Part shown: one piece after another, positions 5,667 through 50,956 of the stretch
How the letters are laid out: each line of letters begins with the position of its first letter
How positions within the stretch are numbered: the stretch's first letter is position 1
NCBI GenBank assembly: GCA_001001345.1
Contig: LCKI01000002.1
Coordinates: 1 to 60,668 of the forward strand
Reading direction: 5' to 3'
Source of the DNA: Parcubacteria group bacterium GW2011_GWC1_45_14
GTDB lineage: Bacteria; Patescibacteriota; Minisyncoccia; Moranbacterales; GWC2-37-73
DNA: 60,668 nucleotides
Notes under the pieces: generated by a model
Databases searched by the model: none
What the model was told of the DNA's origin: nothing
The model's input: the letters and a program-made list of their open reading frames with translations, nothing else
Made by a program: the position numbers and the translations under genes

Positions 5667-6758
5667 TTATGATTTTACGTAATTTTGCCCTCCTATGTTC
5701 TTGATTATTCCCTTTATTTCCAGCATCGCGAGCGTCGAGAGGGCGGTCGCTGTCTCCAGTTTAGAGAGTTTCACGACTATGTCAACGTGGACGCTTTCTT
5801 GGCCTAATACGTCTAGGACGCCCCTTTCTTCCTTTGAGGCGGGTTCATATGTATCTTTTTTGGAGGTTTTCGTGGAAGATTTCAATGTTTCGACAAAACT
5901 TATTTCCTCCAAAATGTCAGAAACTGAGGCGGCTAATTTGGCGCCTTTTCGAAGGAGCATGTGCGGACCCTGGCTCTGGAGATGGAAAATTGGTCCGGGC
6001 ACGGCGAAAACTTCCCGGTTGAAATCCAGCGCCAGATTGGCGGTAATAAGGCTTCCGCTGTCCAAAGCCGCCTCCACTACGAGTGTGCCCAGGCTCATTC
6101 CGGCCATGATCCTGTTTCTCGCCGGGAAGCTCCCTGGAAGAGGGGAGGTGCCGGCGGGGTATTCGCTAAGGAGTAATCCGCCGGAGCGGATGATCTCCTG
6201 GGAAAGCTCGAAGTTTGAGCGCGGATGGATACTTTTTTCGTCCAGACCGTTTCCCAAGACCGCGACGGTTTTCCCCTTGGCTTCGAGGGCTCCGGCATGG
6301 GCGATCGCGTCGATGCCGAGTGCCAGCCCGCTGACGACCGTGATCCCGCTATTGGCCAGTTCGCGCCCAAAGGAGCTGGCCACCCGACTTCCGTATTCGG
6401 TGGATTTTCGCGAACCCACGACCGCGATCATCGTGGAATTGAGCAGGGAGAGGTCTCCTTTGGCATAGAGTATATAAGGAGGGTTATGGATTTCTTTGAG
6501 AAGATTCGGATAGGCCGGATCTTCCAGGGAAATGACGGAAATCCCCTCCTTTTCCAATTCCTCCCATTCTTTGTCCAGGTTGATGGAATTTCTTTCCGAA
6601 ATTATTTTCCCCGCCAGGTTTTCGGAAAGTCCCGCCCCGATCAGCTCCGCAAGGGGAGCGCCCCAAGCTTTTTCCGAAGAATCGAAATGCGCCATAAGGA
6701 GCGCCAGCTTCTGACTCCCGACCCCTTCGATTTTATTGAGGGCGTTGAGATATTTCAT
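5667..6758 (-). CDS. dprA: DNA-processing protein DprA (Smf)
   Basis: IAVVGSRKSTEYG, SGLALGIDAIAH and FPARNRIMAG are typical DprA Rossmann-fold motifs. Confidence 0.9.
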   Translation of the reverse strand: MKYLNALNKIEGVGSQKLALLMAHFDSSEKAWGAPLAELIGAGLSENLAGKIISERNSINLDKEWEELEKEGISVISLEDPAYPNLLKEIHNPPYILYAKGDLSLLNSTMIAVVGSRKSTEYGSRVASSFGRELANSGITVVSGLALGIDAIAHAGALEAKGKTVAVLGNGLDEKSIHPRSNFELSQEIIRSGGLLLSEYPAGTSPLPGSFPARNRIMAGMSLGTLVVEAALDSGSLITANLALDFNREVFAVPGPIFHLQSQGPHMLLRKGAKLAASVSDILEEISFVETLKSSTKTSKKDTYEPASKEERGVLDVLGQESVHVDIVVKLSKLETATALSTLAMLEIKGIIKNIGGQNYVKS

Positions 6759-15268: not shown

Positions 15269-16525
15269 ATGGCGGAAATAAAACCAGATATAGAAACATT
15301 TGCAAGGATAAAGGTTGTCGGTGTGGGAGGATCTGGAAATAACGCGATCAGTAGGATGATCGACTCCAAAATAAAAGGAGTTGAATTTGTCACCATCAAT
15401 ACCGATGCGCAGGCGCTCCATCATTCCAAAGCCCAGGAAAAAGTGCATATCGGAAAAAATCTTACCAAGGGACTCGGAGCAGGAATGAATCCGGAAATCG
15501 GAAGGCAGGCCGCGGAAGAAAACAGGGATGAAATTCAGGAAGTTCTCAAAGGAGCGGACATGGTTTTCGTGACTTGTGGGCTCGGTGGAGGAACCGGTTC
15601 CGGTGCCGCTCCGGTAGTGGCTGAAACCGCCAAGGAACTCGGAGCGTTGACCGTCGCCGTCGTGACCAAACCTTTCGCTTTCGAAGGCGCGCAGAGAAGG
15701 CAGATCGGAGAAGAAGCTCTGCAGAACCTCAAAGACAGAGTGGACACTTTGATTACGATTCCAAATGACAAATTACTTTCGATCATAGACAGAAAGACCA
15801 CGCTCATAAACGCCTTCAGGATAGTCGACGACGTCCTAAGACAGGGCGTGCAGGGAATTTCAGACCTCATCACCAAGCCGGGAATAGTAAATGTCGACTT
15901 TGCCGACGTGCGAGCGATCATGCATGACAGCGGATCGGCACTTATGGGAATCGGAGTTTCCAGTGGAGACAACAGGGCCGCCGAGGCCGCCAAGGCCGCC
16001 ATTAACAGCCCCTTATTGGAGCTTTCGGTGGATGGGGCCAAGGGCGTGCTTTTCAATATCTCCGGTTCAAGCGACCTCACGATGTTGGAAATAAACGAAG
16101 CTGCCAATATCATCACGGAAAGCATCGATCCTAACGCCAAGGTCATCTTCGGAGCGGTGGTCGATGACCAAGTGAAAAAAGGCGAAATACATATCACCGT
16201 CGTGGCGACAGGATTCGATCCAGACAAGGAGAAAGTGAATCCCTTGATCGGAAGGGTTCCGATAAACAGGACCGTCACCGTGGAGGAAAAAATGAAAGAG
16301 GAGGAGGACATCGAAGAGGAGAAGGAAATCAGGGTCGAGAAGGAGGAACTGCCTGAGCTGAAAGAGAGGATAACTTTCCCTTCCAGGAAAGTGGAAACCA
16401 AGATGATCATCGAGGAAAAGATCCAACCGAAACCTATTTCCCAGCAGAGAATCGAGAAGGAAGAGGTGGAGGATGAAGACGAATTGGAAATCCCGGCTTT
16501 TATCAGAAGGAAAATGGAGAAATAA
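15269..16525 (+). CDS. ftsZ: cell division protein FtsZ
   Basis: GVGGSGNNA, the tubulin signature [11 protein letters not shown], an acidic linker, and the conserved C-terminal peptide [10 protein letters not shown]. Confidence 0.97.
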
Positions 16526-27023: not shown

Positions 27024-28487
27024 ATGTCCAAATCCAAAATATTTTTCTGGTTTTCGGTAAGCTTCATTTGCGGGATCGGTCTGCGGTCTTTTTTCGAAAT
27101 ATCGTCCGCCTTGCTTTTGTTGGGCGTGATAATTTCCATCTCCCTTCTGACTATTTTTTATAAAAATAAGACTGCGGCCCTGGCTGCTTTTTTTATTTTC
27201 GCTTTGGTTTTAGGCGCCTGGGTTCTGGATGGGGATTTGGAGAAAACAAAAAACATTTTCTTGGACGGGAAAAGTATAAACGGGAATGCGGTCATCGTCA
27301 AGGAACCAGAGAAAAAAGAAAATTATCAGAAAATTATCGCATGCTTGGAAGACGAACAGGAAAGGGTTTTGATAAACACCGCGCTTTATCCGGAATATTC
27401 CTATGGCGATAAAATAAATTTGGAATGCGTTTTGAAAATTCCAGAAAACAGGGAAGGGGATTTTGATTACAAATCCTATTTGGCCAAGGATGGTATTATG
27501 TATATCTGCGAAAAGGCGAAGTTGAAAAAAGTGGGAGAAGAGAAAAGAAATTTTCTTTATACGGCTGTTTTGAAAATAAAAAATAAGCTGGATGAAAACA
27601 TCGCGGTCGCCATTCCCCAGCCAGAAGCGGCTCTGGCAAGCGGGATGCTTTTCGGGGGAAGCGACGCGATGTCAGAAAAAGTCCAGGATGCGTTTTCGCG
27701 CACCGGTATGACGCATATAGTGGCGGTCTCGGGATATAACGTCACGATAATCGCGGAGTATCTGGTGCTGCTTGGAATATTTCTGGGACTCTGGCGAAGA
27801 CAAGCCCTTTGGGTGGCGATCTTCGGAATATTTATTTTCGTCGCGATGATAGGTTTTCCGGCGTCCGCGGTTCGGGCGGGTGTGATGGGGACGGTTCTTA
27901 TTTGGGCCATGAAAAACGGCAGACTTTCCAATTCTCTAAATGCTATAATTTTCGCCGGGGCGGTCATGTTGGTTTTCAATCCGATGCTTCTTCGATATGA
28001 CGTCGGTTTCCAACTTTCCTTTTTGGCGACCTTGGGAATCGTCTTGCTTTCTCCTTTGGCGGAAAAAATTTCTCTTCGAAAATTCAATCCGTTGGGAATT
28101 TCGGAAATCATCTTTCTTTCCATCTGCGCGCAGGTTTTCGTGCTCCCGATAATAATGCACAATTTCCAGACAGTCTCCCTGATCTCGCTTTTGGCGAATG
28201 TGTTGGTGCTTCCGATTATTCCGATTTCGATGTTGCTTTCATTTCTCGCGGCGGTCTTTGGAATTTTTCTTGCTCCCGCTTTCAATGTCTTTGCTTGGCT
28301 GGCCTACCTTCCGCTATACTATGAGATAGAAACGATAAATTTCCTTTCCGGATTTTCCTGGGCAAGCAGGACGGTTGAAGATTTTGGCCCGACTGCGGTC
28401 GTTGCGTATTACGCGGCATTGGGGGTTATCATGCTTTCCGTGAAGAAAATTGAAAATGTAAAAATCAAAAATAAAAATGACAGATAA
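27024..28487 (+). CDS. comEC: ComEC/Rec2 DNA-uptake channel, membrane part only (DUF4131-like + competence domain)
   Basis: Polytopic. FSRTGMTHIVAVSGYNVTII is the competence-domain signature. It lacks the metallo-beta-lactamase domain. Confidence 0.85.
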   Translation: MSKSKIFFWFSVSFICGIGLRSFFEISSALLLLGVIISISLLTIFYKNKTAALAAFFIFALVLGAWVLDGDLEKTKNIFLDGKSINGNAVIVKEPEKKENYQKIIACLEDEQERVLINTALYPEYSYGDKINLECVLKIPENREGDFDYKSYLAKDGIMYICEKAKLKKVGEEKRNFLYTAVLKIKNKLDENIAVAIPQPEAALASGMLFGGSDAMSEKVQDAFSRTGMTHIVAVSGYNVTIIAEYLVLLGIFLGLWRRQALWVAIFGIFIFVAMIGFPASAVRAGVMGTVLIWAMKNGRLSNSLNAIIFAGAVMLVFNPMLLRYDVGFQLSFLATLGIVLLSPLAEKISLRKFNPLGISEIIFLSICAQVFVLPIIMHNFQTVSLISLLANVLVLPIIPISMLLSFLAAVFGIFLAPAFNVFAWLAYLPLYYEIETINFLSGFSWASRTVEDFGPTAVVAYYAALGVIMLSVKKIENVKIKNKNDR

Positions 28488-28559
28488 AAATTAAAAATGA
28501 TTTATTGGATTTTGCATTTCATATTGTCATTTTCCATTTTGATATTTGATTTTTAAATC
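28452..28559 (+). repeat. imperfect A/T heptad inverted repeat spanning the comEC stop and the spacer
   Basis: The left arm gtaaaaatcaaaaataaaaatgaca pairs with the right arm tgtcattttccattttgatatttgatttttaaatc (11 consecutive pairs, then 8/10, by hand). Confidence 0.55.
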
Positions 28560-28565
28560 ACTATA

Positions 28566-37688: not shown

Positions 37689-38111
37689 ATGCCTACAATA
37701 AACCAGCTTGTTAAGAAGAACAGAACATCAGCCAAGAAGAAATCGAAGTCACCAGCCATGACCTATGTTTTCAATACCTTGAAAAACAAACCGAAGGACA
37801 CGAACAGTCCTTACAAGAGAGGAGTCTGCATCAAGGTTGGAACCACCACTCCTAAAAAGCCTAACTCCGCTCTTCGAAAGATTGCCAGGGTTAGACTTAC
37901 GAATGGAATGGAAGTCACTGCTTATATCCCAGGAGTCGGACACAACCTTCAGGAACACTCGATCGTCATGATCCGTGGAGGAAGAGTGAAAGATCTTCCG
38001 GGTGTTCGCTATCACATAGTCAGGGGAGTATTGGATGCCGCCGGAGTTGAAGGAAGAAACAGAGGAAGGAGCAAATACGGTGCCAAGAGACCTAAGGCAA
38101 AGACTGAATAA
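37689..38111 (+). CDS. rpsL: 30S ribosomal protein S12
   Basis: [33 protein letters not shown]. Confidence 0.97.
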
Positions 38112-38116
38112 TAATA

Positions 38117-38233
38117 AATTAAATATCAAAAATCAAAATTAAAAATTAAAGTATTCGCTTCGCTCATGACTTTTGAAAAAAAATGTTGCGAAGCAACACT
38201 ATAATTTTACATTTTGAGATTTAAATTTTGAAT
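38117..38233 (+). repeat. A/T heptad-rich spacer with a central GC hairpin (rpsL-rpsG)
   Basis: atcaaaa atcaaaa ttaaaaa..., the gcttcgc/gcgaagc stem (38157-38163 / 38188-38194), then ...ttttgag atttaaa ttttgaa. The arm pairing is only approximate. Confidence 0.45.
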
Positions 38234-38244
38234 TAACATATATT

Positions 38245-47241: not shown

Positions 47242-47242
47242 G

Positions 47243-47358
47243 CACTACGAATTAAGAATTTTACGAAACTACGAAACTGATAATGGAAGGAATCAGATTA
47301 TAAATGAATATAGCGTGAAATGCGGTTCGTACATTCGTACAATTCGTATTTCGTAGAG
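47243..47358 (+). repeat. tacgaat-heptad inverted-repeat element, copy B2 (fills the rpsC-rplP spacer)
   Basis: cactacgaattaagaattttacgaaactacgaa...ttcgtacattcgtacaattcgtatttcgtagag. The arms pair at 26/31 positions. It starts 1 nt after the stop and ends 8 nt before the ATG. Confidence 0.9.
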
Positions 47359-47366
47359 AAAAACAT

Positions 47367-49835: not shown

Positions 49836-49882
49836 GGAATATTTTGATAATTGATTTAATTTTGAATTCACAATAAAAGCGT

Positions 49883-50287
49883 ATGTTAGATACAATCAGC
49901 GACATGCTTACCAGGATAAGGAACGCCCAGATGGCTGGACACAAGGAAGTGGAAATGCCATTTTCCAAATTGAAATTGGCCATCGCGAAAATCCTGGAAG
50001 AGAAAAATTTCATAGATTCCGTTGCCAAGGAAGGCGAGGACACGGCTACTAAAGTCCGCATCCAGCTTAAATATGAAAATATTTCAAATAACAAAAAAGT
50101 TCCTGTCATCAGGGGGATCAGAAGGGTCAGTAGGGAAGGACAGAGAATTTATGTCAAGAAAAATGAAATAAAGTCAGTTAAGAGCGGATATGGAATCTCG
50201 GTAGTTTCGACATCGAGAGGGGTGATGACCGGAGAGGATGCCAGAAAGAAGGGTCTTGGAGGGGAAGTGATCTGTGAAGTCTGGTAG
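49883..50287 (+). CDS. rpsH: 30S ribosomal protein S8
   Basis: MLDTISDMLTRIRNA...GGEVICEVW. Confidence 0.96.
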   Translation: MLDTISDMLTRIRNAQMAGHKEVEMPFSKLKLAIAKILEEKNFIDSVAKEGEDTATKVRIQLKYENISNNKKVPVIRGIRRVSREGQRIYVKKNEIKSVKSGYGISVVSTSRGVMTGEDARKKGLGGEVICEVW

Positions 50288-50290
50288 GGA

Positions 50291-50407
50291 GATTGAAGGT
50301 GCAAAGCTCAAGGTGCGAAATTATGGAGTCGCTGCGCGACGACATTGGAAGGATTATGAGCGAAGCGAACACGATAATTTTAAATTTTGATTTTTAAATT
50401 TTGATTC
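50291..50407 (+). repeat. heptad-built hairpin filling the rpsH-rplF spacer; it pairs better as plus-strand RNA
   Basis: Left arm gattgaaggtgcaaagctcaaggtgcgaaattatgg against right arm cgataattttaaattttgatttttaaattttgattc. By hand, 36 positions give 22 Watson-Crick pairs and 6 G-U pairs. Central gtcgc-tgc-gcgac hairpin. Confidence 0.65.
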
Positions 50408-50419
50408 ACATTCATTAAT

Positions 50420-50956
50420 ATGAGCAGATTAGGAAAAAGACCAATAGCCATACCAAGCGGAGTTACCGTCGAAGTTAAAGACGATACCGTTTCAGTCAAG
50501 GGACCAAAAGGAACCCTCTCTTTCGAGTACAAAAGAGAAGTCGAGGTCAAAGTTTCCGAGGAAGGTGTCGTGGTTGAGAAAAAAGGAAAATCCAAGGAAG
50601 CGCCTGCGATCTGGGGAACTACAGCCAGGATGATCGAAAATTTGATCACTGGTGTGACAGCTGGTTTCCAAAAACAACTTGAATTAAACGGAGTCGGCTT
50701 TAGGATGGCAGTTGCTGGAAAGAAGATAAACCTGGCTCTCGGATTCTCGCACCCGGTGGAGGTTGAGATAGTCGAGGGGATCGATGTCAAAATCGAAGGA
50801 AACACGCTGACTGTGTCCGGAATAGACAAGCACGCCGTAGGACAGTTCGCTGCCAACGTCAGGAAGCTCAAGCCTGTCGAACCATACAAAGGAAAAGGAT
50901 TCAAATATGTCGGAGAATTCGTGAGAAGGAAAGAAGGAAAGAGGTCGGCAGCCTAA
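50420..50956 (+). CDS. rplF: 50S ribosomal protein L6
   Basis: MSRLGKRPIAIPSGV...PYKGKGFKY. Confidence 0.96.
   Translation: MSRLGKRPIAIPSGVTVEVKDDTVSVKGPKGTLSFEYKREVEVKVSEEGVVVEKKGKSKEAPAIWGTTARMIENLITGVTAGFQKQLELNGVGFRMAVAGKKINLALGFSHPVEVEIVEGIDVKIEGNTLTVSGIDKHAVGQFAANVRKLKPVEPYKGKGFKYVGEFVRRKEGKRSAA

What the first reader, a model, noticed from the sequence alone, without database searches (positions are those of the whole stretch)
50291..50407. The rpsH-rplF spacer is a heptad-periodic hairpin whose G-U pattern argues for function as plus-strand RNA
The left arm (aaggtgc aaagctc aaggtgc gaaatta...) and right arm (ataattt taaattt tgatttt taaattt tgattc) both have 7-nt periodicity but very different composition. 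Aligning 50291-50326 antiparallel to 50372-50407 gives 22 Watson-Crick pairs plus 6 G-U pairs out of 36. The 6 G-U pairs would be C-A mismatches on the other strand. A small GC hairpin (gtcgc-tgc-gcgac) sits at the centre, and the structure ends 12 nt before the rplF ATG. The architecture is the same as in the tacgaat family (heptad arm, GC-rich centre, complementary heptad arm, short A-rich tail, ATG) but with unrelated sequence. The shared trait therefore looks like structure-level convergence or very old divergence.
Basis: seen in the sequence. Interest (0 to 1): 0.65.

Follow-up and report, generated by a model that had tools for sequence, protein, structure and literature searches.

The report
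Decayed palindromic repeat between rpsH and rplF
The hairpin between the S8 and L6 ribosomal-protein genes is real, but it is a worn copy of a repeated palindromic DNA element that litters this ultra-small bacterium and its relatives, and its G-U pairs are ordinary A-to-G mutations and not a sign of a working RNA.

Summary
The spacer is not a unique structure. It is one decayed copy of a dispersed palindromic family with AATTCAAAAT-type arms and GC boxes GGAGTCGCTNCGCGAC and GAGCGAAGCGA. The family has at least 14 copies in this 0.89-Mb Patescibacteria genome, and its word signature occurs in 227 of 301 genomes of the order.

The sister species has a 36-nt spacer here and lacks all four large elements of the S10-spc region. 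The G-U argument fails:
- Composition-matched z-scores are equal on both strands (-1.3).
- 8 of 14 family copies fold better antisense.
- 149 long spc-operon spacers from 39 genomes give 297 sense G-U against 320 A-C.
- The conserved core occurs in both orientations.
- Four of the six G-U pairs come from one duplicated word.

I read it as a MITE/REPIN-like selfish palindrome carried passively in the operon transcript. An RNA role, such as RNase III processing or insulation of the start region, is not excluded but has no support here. The shared-architecture claim is right: the same spacer hosts at least 8 word families.

The parts
49883..50287 (+). rpsH (ribosomal protein S8); stop codon TAG at 50285-50287
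   Evidence: ORF list; Pfam Ribosomal_S8, E 5e-45
50288..50419 (.). The whole 132-nt spacer, which is one copy of the TTTTGA/AATTCAAAAT-word palindromic element (type A subfamily)
   Evidence: BLAST to at least 14 other places in the genome. Alignment with 8 other type A copies from 4 genera, 74% mean column identity. Inverted-repeat score z 4.6.
50291..50326 (.). Left arm, decayed. Its heptads include AAGGTGC twice (50296-50302 and 50310-50316). It carries 6 derived A-to-G changes against the family consensus AATTCAAAATG(T/C)AAA.CTCAAAATGCAAAATTAT.
   Evidence: This arm has no excess contig depth in metagenomes, so its sequence is unique.
50326..50340 (.). Core box 1, GAGTCGCTGCGCGAC, containing the 5-bp mini-hairpin GTCGC-TGC-GCGAC (50328-50340)
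   Evidence: Conserved in 9 copies, 97.8% of cells paired. Two compensatory pairs exist, both in one copy. Found 7 times in the genome.
50341..50357 (.). A/T-richer linker between the two core boxes. Its length and sequence vary between copies.
   Evidence: Alignment A3
50358..50368 (.). Core box 2, GAGCGAAGCGA, containing the GCGAAGC mini-hairpin motif (50360-50366). It can also pair with box 1.
   Evidence: The 11-mer occurs 14 times in the genome. GCGAAGC and CGAAGCG are the top same-composition 7-mers in intergenic DNA. Box 1/box 2 pairing appears in the minimum-free-energy and consensus folds.
50372..50407 (.). Right arm, near the family consensus: TTTTAAATTTTGAT x2.1 (period 14, 100% match), 89% identical to 38195-38231
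   Evidence: (D9, I1). It shows a 30-100-fold excess of summed contig depth in metagenomes, so the words are shared by many organisms.
50408..50419 (+). 12-nt A/T-rich tail before the rplF ATG, with no Shine-Dalgarno sequence. This is typical of start regions in this genome.
   Evidence: Upstream composition of 642 genes: G 10-19%, A-rich from -13 to -2, T at -1 in 53%
50420..50956 (+). rplF (ribosomal protein L6)
   Evidence: ORF list; Pfam Ribosomal_L6, E 4e-35
38107..38244 (.). Better-preserved copy of the same family (type B core) filling the rpsL-rpsG spacer
   Evidence: (I1: 51 nt, 84% complementary to 50356-50406)
28450..28565 (.). Related A-rich/T-rich heptad palindrome. Its left arm overlaps the stop of the upstream ORF.
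   Evidence: (I3, I19)
49841..49873 (.). Solo sequence resembling a right arm (ttttgataattgatttaattttgaattcaca) in the rpsN-rpsH spacer, conserved in the sister species

Best explanation
The rpsH-rplF spacer is occupied by an old, one-sidedly decayed copy of a non-coding palindromic repeat element of about 110-130 nt.

**Anatomy of the element**
- Its arms are built from 7/14-nt words, AATTCAAAATG(T/C)AAAA... on the left and the complement on the right.
- Its GC-rich core holds box 1 (GGAGTCGCTNCGCGAC), an A/T linker and box 2 (GAGCGAAGCGA).

**How I think it behaves**
- It behaves as DNA-level selfish or neutral repeat DNA of the MITE/REPIN kind. It is multi-copy, present or absent between close relatives, found in either orientation, and equally common in all types of intergenic region.
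- It was gained in this lineage, or lost in the sister species, and is transcribed passively inside the spc operon.
- It is tolerated because it leaves the short A/U-rich, Shine-Dalgarno-free start region of rplF intact.
- The six G-U pairs are A-to-G transitions in the A-rich left arm, partly duplicated with the 14-nt word. In a palindrome, any such change gives G-U on the strand that carries the A-rich arm on its 5' side.

**Shown versus inferred**
- Shown: family membership, copy number, absence in the sister species, and lack of strand or orientation bias.
- Inferred: mobility (no transposase and no target-site duplication were identified) and the absence of an RNA function.
For: **Family membership**
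- BLAST and repeat finding give at least 14 related copies in the 888-kb genome. The closest is 88.5% identical over 87 nt and lies in the rplM-rpsI spacer.
- Type A copies with the same arms and core boxes occur in 4 genera at unrelated loci.
- The word signature is found in 227 of 301 genomes of the order. G000 has 25 hits against 6 for the reversed control.

**Gain and loss**
- The same-genus G001 has a 36-nt spacer here. It also lacks the three other large elements of the S10-spc region, while most other spacers align.
- G009 and G012 carry the family in this spacer but with the other core type, so these are independent occupations.

**No sense-RNA signature**
- z-scores are equal on both strands.
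- The antisense fold is the more stable in 8 of 14 family copies, and this copy has the weakest z in its sense (+) orientation.
- TTTTGA and TCAAAA occur 119 and 110 times in sense-oriented spacers.
- 149 long spc-operon spacers of 39 genomes give 297 sense G-U against 320 A-C, and the sense fold is the more stable in 76 against 70.
- Type A cores lie sense in 4 copies and antisense in at least 3-5.
- Hairpins are equally frequent in co-directional, convergent and divergent spacers: 18.5, 21 and 19%.

**Other checks**
- There is no Rfam hit and no promoter-like or terminator-like site in the spacer.
Against: - No mobilising enzyme was found. Y1 transposase (PF01797) is absent from G000, though present in 24 of 41 relatives. 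Other transposase families were not searched.
- No clean target-site duplication or empty-site junction could be read.
- The sister species' rpsL-rpsG and rpsC-rplP spacers look like solo right arms. That fits loss by deletion as well as gain.
- The spacer is base-for-base identical in contigs from four metagenome runs (X1, X4, X6, X7; X4's contigs break inside the right arm), one of them a soil metagenome from another study, with no empty allele.
- Four of about 14 family copies sit inside ribosomal-protein operons. rpsH-rplF is the most often expanded r-protein spacer: 62% are 70 nt or longer, against 24-46% for the other r-protein spacers. This could reflect function as well as tolerance.
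- The left arm has 7-8 derived changes and the right arm about one. Pure neutral decay does not predict that asymmetry.
Confidence: 0.62

Rival explanations
1. The spacer is a functional sense-strand RNA hairpin. It folds in the spc operon mRNA and acts as an intercistronic device: an RNase III processing site, a 3' stabiliser for the rpsH segment, or an insulator that keeps the Shine-Dalgarno-free rplF start region unpaired. The A-to-G changes were tolerated because G-U keeps the stem.
For: - The long hairpin is the minimum-free-energy fold on the + strand only.
- All six derived A-to-G changes keep pairing in + RNA.
- The stem ends 12 nt before the ATG, leaving the A/U tail free, in an organism without Shine-Dalgarno use.
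- RNase III is encoded in G000.
- The sequence is invariant in four metagenome runs.
- rpsH-rplF is the most often expanded r-protein spacer.
Against: - The fold is no better than shuffles (z -1.3).
- The stem is interrupted in every heptad, and there are also 2 A-C mismatches.
- The sister species does without it.
- The family and the class show no sense G-U excess and no sense-fold advantage.
- Core orientation is mixed.
- Hairpins are equally frequent in non-operon spacers.
- 6 G-U against 2 A-C has P about 0.15 under 1:1, and fewer independent events if the duplicated word counts once.
Confidence: 0.15
2. Only the right arm matters. The T-rich TTTTGAT/TTTTAAA heptads next to the start codon act as a leader module: an S1 or other single-strand RNA-binding site, or a DNA site for an AT-binding protein. 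This would resemble the TAACTGA direct repeats. The left arm is a vestige free to decay.
For: - The right arm is at consensus while the left arm has 7-8 derived changes.
- Sequences resembling solo right arms sit before rpsH in both G000 and G001, and before rpsG in G001.
- TAACTGA heptamers in Beggiatoaceae sit a few nt before start codons that lack ribosome-binding sites, including in r-protein operons (PMC4679880).
Against: - The words are strand-symmetric in sense-oriented spacers: 119 against 110. Solo T-type and solo A-type spacers number 17 and 12.
- The elements occur in both orientations and in convergent and divergent spacers.
- The sister species' rplF has no such words upstream.
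Confidence: 0.12
3. The element is the gene-less shell of a small selfish cassette of the kind known from the 23S rRNA intervening sequences that carry a four-helix-bundle (23S_rRNA_IVP) gene. The A/T linker between the two GC boxes would mark where the cargo was lost.
For: - G000 has two 23S_rRNA_IVP genes, and 19 of 21 relatives have them, with up to 13 copies.
- Both G000 genes are flanked by inverted word-periodic arms, agtttttag / ctaaaaact and catgtat-type.
- Several relatives' copies are flanked by word repeats.
- The linker is the only variable part of the type A core.
Against: - No IVP gene with TTTTGA/TCAAAA arms was found among the ten loci inspected.
- No long arm pair enclosing an ORF was found in G000.
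- The arm polarity of the C26 cassette (T-rich on the 5' side) is opposite to this family's.
Confidence: 0.08

Closest known systems
REPINs / BIMEs (inverted REP doublets mobilised by RAYT Y1 transposases)
   Same: - About 100-nt imperfect palindromes forming a long hairpin, non-coding, extragenic and multi-copy.
- Sequences are lineage-specific.
- Small conserved GC hairpins sit inside the element.
- Y1 transposases are common in relatives.
   Different: - No Y1 transposase in this genome.
- Tens of copies, not hundreds.
- The arms are tandem 7-14-nt words and not a single REP stem.
- The elements fill stop-to-start spacers inside operons.
ERIC/IRU of enterobacteria and Correia (CREE/NEMIS) elements of Neisseria
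   Same: Small imperfect palindromes (about 105-155 bp) lying in transcribed intergenic regions, including inside operons. They are present or absent between close relatives. As RNA they can fold and be cut by RNase III (my own knowledge of that literature), and RNase III is encoded here.
   Different: - No sequence similarity.
- No TA target duplication was readable.
- The arms are word-periodic.
- No evidence of RNA processing is available.
TAACTGA heptamer direct repeats of marine Beggiatoaceae, some Cyanobacteria and Bacteroidetes (PMC4679880); cyanobacterial STRR heptamers
   Same: - Tandem heptamers a few nt upstream of start codons that lack ribosome-binding sites, including inside r-protein operons.
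- Patchy phylogenetic distribution.
- Unknown mechanism of spread.
   Different: Those are direct repeats with one orientation relative to the gene. Here the words come as inverted arms around a GC core and are strand-symmetric.
Intervening sequences of 23S rRNA with an S23p / 23S_rRNA_IVP four-helix-bundle gene
   Same: Long inverted arms forming a stem, with or without a small gene in the loop. IVP genes in this genome sit between word-periodic inverted arms.
   Different: This element carries no gene, has different words, and lies in an mRNA spacer and not in rRNA.

Membership tests
MITE (miniature inverted-repeat transposable element) | Terminal inverted repeats | tested here: met
   The termini read AATTCAAAAT...ATTTTGAATT in well-preserved copies. 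In this copy the left terminus is decayed (GATTGAAGGT).
MITE (miniature inverted-repeat transposable element) | Multiple dispersed non-coding copies, present or absent between relatives | tested here: met
   At least 14 copies in G000. Absent from the orthologous spacer of the same-genus G001. The small ORF starting at 50323 is not conserved in frame.
MITE (miniature inverted-repeat transposable element) | Target-site duplication at the insertion | tested here: inconclusive
   The flanks are AT-rich and the element ends are fuzzy. The filled and empty spacers of G000 and G001 do not align cleanly.
MITE (miniature inverted-repeat transposable element) | A cognate autonomous element or transposase with matching ends | tested here: inconclusive
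   Only Y1_Tnp was searched, and G000 has none. DDE families were not searched.
REP/REPIN-RAYT system | A RAYT (Y1 transposase) gene in the same genome, flanked by the repeats | tested here: not met
   PF01797 gives 0 matches in G000 (97% complete), against 24 of 41 relatives with a match.
REP/REPIN-RAYT system | Two inverted short GC-rich palindromic units forming one long hairpin | tested here: inconclusive
   The core has two GC boxes that can pair with each other, and one forms its own 5-bp hairpin. Most of the stem, however, is AT-rich word repeats.
Structured cis-regulatory RNA (r-protein leader or any Rfam family) | A match to a curated covariance model | tested here: not met
   No Rfam family reaches its gathering score anywhere in the window.
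Structured cis-regulatory RNA (r-protein leader or any Rfam family) | Fold more stable than composition-matched shuffles, on the transcribed strand only | tested here: not met
   z is -1.34 on the sense strand and -1.26 on the antisense strand. In the family, the antisense fold is better in 8 of 14 copies.
Structured cis-regulatory RNA (r-protein leader or any Rfam family) | Conservation at the orthologous position, with compensatory changes | tested here: not met
   The element is absent in the sister species. Other genera hold other word families at this spacer. The covariation term is +0.61.
TAACTGA/STRR-type heptamer direct repeats | Tandem direct heptamers in one orientation relative to the downstream start codon | tested here: not met
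   The 7/14-nt periodicity and the position 12 nt before the ATG are met. The words are strand-symmetric, however: TTTTGA 119 against TCAAAA 110, and they come as inverted arms.
IVS / 23S_rRNA_IVP cassette shell | The same arms flanking an IVP gene somewhere | tested here: inconclusive
   IVP genes are flanked by word-periodic inverted arms, but with other words. Only ten loci were inspected.

The most novel reading that the evidence does not exclude
Word-periodic hairpins could be a general intercistronic punctuation system of Patescibacteria, which lack Shine-Dalgarno sequences. Each stop-to-start spacer would be folded away as RNA and possibly cut by RNase III, so that the short A/U start region of the next cistron stays free. 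Each genome would evolve its own words. In that case the rpsH-rplF copy would be one where the DNA palindrome has been lost but the RNA stem is kept through G-U pairs.
Probability: 0.1. Interest if true: 0.75.

Novelty: new variant of a known kind. Interest (0 to 1): 0.35.

Why it matters
For this finding, the result is mainly a caution. In a palindrome with an A-rich arm, G-U pairs and a strand difference in folding energy arise from ordinary transitions and from composition. They should not be read as evidence for an RNA function.

The wider class is more interesting:
- Ultra-small, streamlined genomes (0.7-1.4 Mb) carry roughly 100-nt word-periodic palindromes, in some species between nearly every gene of the essential spc operon.
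- The words are lineage-specific.
- The GC cores are built on the GCGAAGC mini-hairpin motif.
- No transposase has been identified.

I found no description of this class in the searchable literature. Learning how these elements spread and why they are tolerated inside ribosomal-protein operons would bear on translation initiation without Shine-Dalgarno sequences and on genome dynamics in the candidate phyla radiation.

Tried and rejected
1. **Small ORF.** ATG 50323 opens MESLRDDIGRIMSEANTIILNFDF. The closest paralog differs at 10 nt, 7 of them at third codon positions (P about 0.02). I rejected it because other copies lack the ATG, are frameshifted, or read box 2 in another frame.
2. **AAGGTG as a Shine-Dalgarno sequence for that ORF.** Rejected because the genome shows no Shine-Dalgarno use: G is depleted upstream of 642 starts.
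3. **Promoter or intrinsic terminator in the spacer.** No consensus match between 50288 and 50419.
4. **Rfam.** No hit in the whole window.
5. **RAYT/IS200 partner.** None in G000.
6. **Transcript evidence.** Only three tiny SOLiD metatranscriptomes, holding none of the words.
7. **Population polymorphism or an empty-site allele.** None. Contigs of the four runs laid (X1, X4, X6, X7) match the spacer without a difference; X4's break inside the right arm.
8. **Anchoring to the start codon.** Hairpin ends are as close to the upstream stop (median 7 nt) as to the downstream ATG (median 8.5 nt), so this is uninformative.
9. **Genome-wide sense G-U excess.** Weak at a low threshold (683 against 570) and absent among the strongest hairpins (104 against 110).
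10. **Homology of the G001 empty spacer to the left arm plus an ancestral ATG.** The alignment is not convincing.
11. **Arm pairs enclosing a cargo gene in G000.** None found.

Full report
**1. The observation**

The spacer between rpsH (49883-50287; Pfam Ribosomal_S8) and rplF (50420-50956; Ribosomal_L6) is 132 nt long.
It also gives 2 A-C mismatches. Register 0 is clearly the best, and arm shuffles reach that many pairs in a fraction 0.0001 of 20,000 trials.
- The right arm is TTTTAAATTTTGAT x2.1 (period 14, 100% match; period 7, 80%).
- The left arm holds AAGGTGC twice, 14 nt apart.
- The GC mini-hairpin GTCGC-TGC-GCGAC lies at 50328-50340.
- The arm ends 12 nt before the ATG.

**2. Is it more than chance?**

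- As a DNA inverted repeat, yes. With a score that treats G-T and A-C alike, the spacer scores 34, against 19.4 (maximum 25) for dinucleotide shuffles, z 4.6.
- As an RNA fold, no. The + strand folds at -28.1 kcal/mol against -23.9 +/- 3.2 for shuffles (z -1.34; 22 of 200 shuffles fold as well). The - strand folds at -19.0 against -15.3 +/- 3.0 (z -1.26).
- The 9 kcal/mol strand difference is therefore reproduced by shuffled sequences and reflects composition, although the long-range hairpin itself is the minimum-free-energy fold only on the + strand.
- Rfam has no match in the window. The spacer has no promoter-like or terminator-like site.

**3. What it is**

The spacer is not unique.
- Its right half (50356-50406) is 84% complementary to the left half of the rpsL-rpsG spacer, and 50368-50404 is 89% identical to that spacer's right arm.
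- BLAST against the organism's 888-kb assembly finds at least 14 related places. The closest is 88.5% identical over 87 nt, including the core, and lies between rplM and rpsI. Another lies between rpsM and rpsK.
- Copies with the same arms and the same core occur at unrelated loci in four genera, with 74% mean column identity. The core is GGAGTCGCTNCGCGAC, a variable A/T linker, then ATGAGCGAAGCGAAT.
- The arm signature ATTTTGANNTTTNAATTTTRA (at most 1 mismatch) is found in 227 of 301 genomes of the order. This genome has 25 hits against 6 for the reversed control.
- In metagenome contigs the right arm carries a 30-100-fold excess of summed depth, because many organisms share its words. The decayed left arm does not.

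**4. Gain and loss**

- The same-genus relative G001 (L6 92% identical) has a 36-nt spacer without any element.
- G001 also lacks the three other large hairpin elements of the S10-spc region: rpsL-rpsG is 33 nt against 133, rpsC-rplP 43 against 125, and rplR-rpsE 25 against 137. Meanwhile spacers such as rpsG-fusA, fusA-tuf, rpsS-rplV and rpsN-rpsH align well.
- Two of G001's short spacers look like solo right arms. Loss by deletion of one arm plus the core is therefore as possible as gain.
- Across 39 genomes of the order, the share of spc-operon spacers of 70 nt or more ranges from 24% to 64%, and rpsH-rplF is at 62%. Some genomes have a roughly 100-nt element in nearly every spacer and others have none.
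- In the rpsH-rplF spacer alone I read at least eight different word families, including tacgaat, agtccataaag, tgtttaaa, ttataagt, attagc and gaagct. Two genera carry the TTTTGA family with the other core type.
- Of 149 long spacers, 95 have an inverted-repeat score above all 20 shuffles, where 7 are expected. The best periods run from 7 to 11, and 8 is the commonest.

**5. The G-U argument**

Compared with the eight other type A copies, this copy's left arm has six derived A-to-G changes. Its right arm is at consensus.
- In a palindrome whose 5' arm is A-rich, any A-to-G gives G-U on that strand, so the pairing adds no information beyond the substitution type.
- Four of the six G-U pairs lie in the word AAGGTGC, which is present twice. 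That points to duplication or conversion and not to independent events.
- 6 G-U against 2 A-C has P about 0.15 under 1:1.
- At the family level, the antisense fold is the more stable in 8 of 14 copies, and this copy has the weakest z in its sense (+) orientation.
- In sense-oriented co-directional spacers, TTTTGA and TCAAAA occur 119 and 110 times.
- In the 149 long spc-operon spacers, which are all certainly sense-oriented, there are 297 sense G-U against 320 A-C. The sense fold is the more stable in 76 against 70.
- Genome-wide, the strongest hairpins give 104 against 110.
- The conserved type A core lies sense to the flanking genes in 4 copies and antisense in at least 3-5.
- Hairpins are equally frequent in co-directional, convergent and divergent spacers: 18.5, 21 and 19%.
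- The RNAalifold covariation term for the subfamily is +0.61. Only the 5-bp box 1 hairpin shows compensatory pairs, both in one copy.

**6. Mechanism**

I commit to a DNA-level, selfish or neutral palindromic repeat of the MITE/REPIN kind, carried passively in the operon transcript and decaying on its left side (confidence about 0.6).
- The organism does not use Shine-Dalgarno sequences. G is 10-19% upstream of 642 starts, the region from -13 to -2 is A-rich, and T stands at -1 in 53%. An insertion that leaves about 12 A/U-rich nucleotides before the ATG is therefore plausibly harmless.
- What is missing is a mobiliser and a target duplication. Y1 transposase is absent here though common in relatives.

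The main rival is a sense RNA hairpin that insulates the start region or is processed by RNase III.
- RNase III is encoded.
- The rival fits the position of the element and the unexplained asymmetry of decay.
- It has no statistical support, and no usable RNA data exist.

**7. Leads**

- Both 23S_rRNA_IVP genes of this genome sit between inverted word-periodic arms. No IVP gene with this family's words was seen.
- The core motif GAGCGAAGCGA occurs 14 times in the genome. GCGAAGC and CGAAGCG are the most frequent 7-mers of their composition in intergenic DNA, 43 and 53 against a median of 11, but not in coding DNA. GCGAAGC is the known extraordinarily stable mini-hairpin motif (PMC13037366).

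**8. Comparison and novelty**

- The closest known kinds are REPINs/BIMEs, ERIC/Correia elements, the TAACTGA/STRR heptamer repeats (PMC4679880) and IVS cassettes. For the two families tested on more than one feature (MITE, REP/REPIN), not every defining feature is met.
- I found no description of word-periodic palindromes in Patescibacteria in three literature searches.
- Earlier notes of this scan report the class in many genomes, including an AATTCAAAATT-armed family that is evidently the same one.
- The class is a new variant of a known kind. This particular copy is an ordinary, degraded member, and the specific claim made for it does not hold.

Noticed in passing
G000:C26:12375-12761 (L100) and G000:C12:17301-17675: Both 23S_rRNA_IVP (four-helix-bundle) genes of this genome are flanked by inverted word-periodic arms with their own words (agtttgtagtttgtggtttttagtttttag ... 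ctaaaaactaaaaactatctactaaaaactacaaact, and catgtat-type). IVP genes are multi-copy in 19 of 21 relatives, with up to 13 copies.
   Followed up: partly
whole genome G000; in the window 50358-50368 and 38155-38165: GAGCGAAGCGA occurs 14 times in 888 kb. GCGAAGC and CGAAGCG are the top same-composition 7-mers in intergenic DNA (43 and 53 against a median of 11) but not in coding DNA. GCGAAGC is the known ultra-stable mini-hairpin motif.
   Followed up: partly
G000:C30:4672, 5811, 6436; C27:1215, 1266; C12:20706; C16:12960: Other small repeat families are built around the same GAGCGAAGCGA box: ccgataatgNgcGAGCGAAGCGAcgcgatttcgtcataac x3, tttttgtcattgcGAGCGAAGCGAagcaatct x2 in tandem, and ggtttcaagGAGCGAAGCGAgtccgattcc x2, one of them (C16:12960) next to what looks like a tRNA gene. 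Their nature is unknown.
   Followed up: no
L031 (G001:C3) 6526-6558 and 15471-15513, compared with window 38112-38244 and 47242-47366: The sister species' short rpsL-rpsG and rpsC-rplP spacers resemble solo right arms of the TTTTGA and TTCGTA elements. This suggests deletion of one arm plus the core as a fate of these palindromes.
   Followed up: partly
window 49841-49873: The rpsN-rpsH spacer holds a sequence resembling a solo right arm (ttttgataattgatttaattttgaattcaca), conserved between G000 and G001.
   Followed up: no
L037, L038, L041, L042, L051, L052 (G006, G019, G023, G011, G017, G022): In these relatives nearly every spacer from rplN to secY is 90-170 nt, so an element sits between almost all spc-operon genes. 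G003, G005, G026, G029, G036 and G040 have almost none.
   Followed up: partly
window 50361-50434: Summed contig depth in groundwater metagenomes jumps from about 8-11 to 300-1100 over the right arm only. Many community members therefore share these words, and assemblies break there.
   Followed up: no
whole genome G000: There is no Shine-Dalgarno signal upstream of 642 gene starts: G is 10-19%, positions -13 to -2 are A-rich, and T stands at -1 in 53%. The 16S 3' end was not found in the assembly. The median intergenic distance in my rough gene calls is about 100 nt, large for so small a genome.
   Followed up: partly
relatives G001-G040: Y1 transposase (PF01797) genes are present in 24 of 41 relatives. 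They include a group of 215-260-aa ORFs that match only the C-terminal two thirds of the model. None is present in G000.
   Followed up: no
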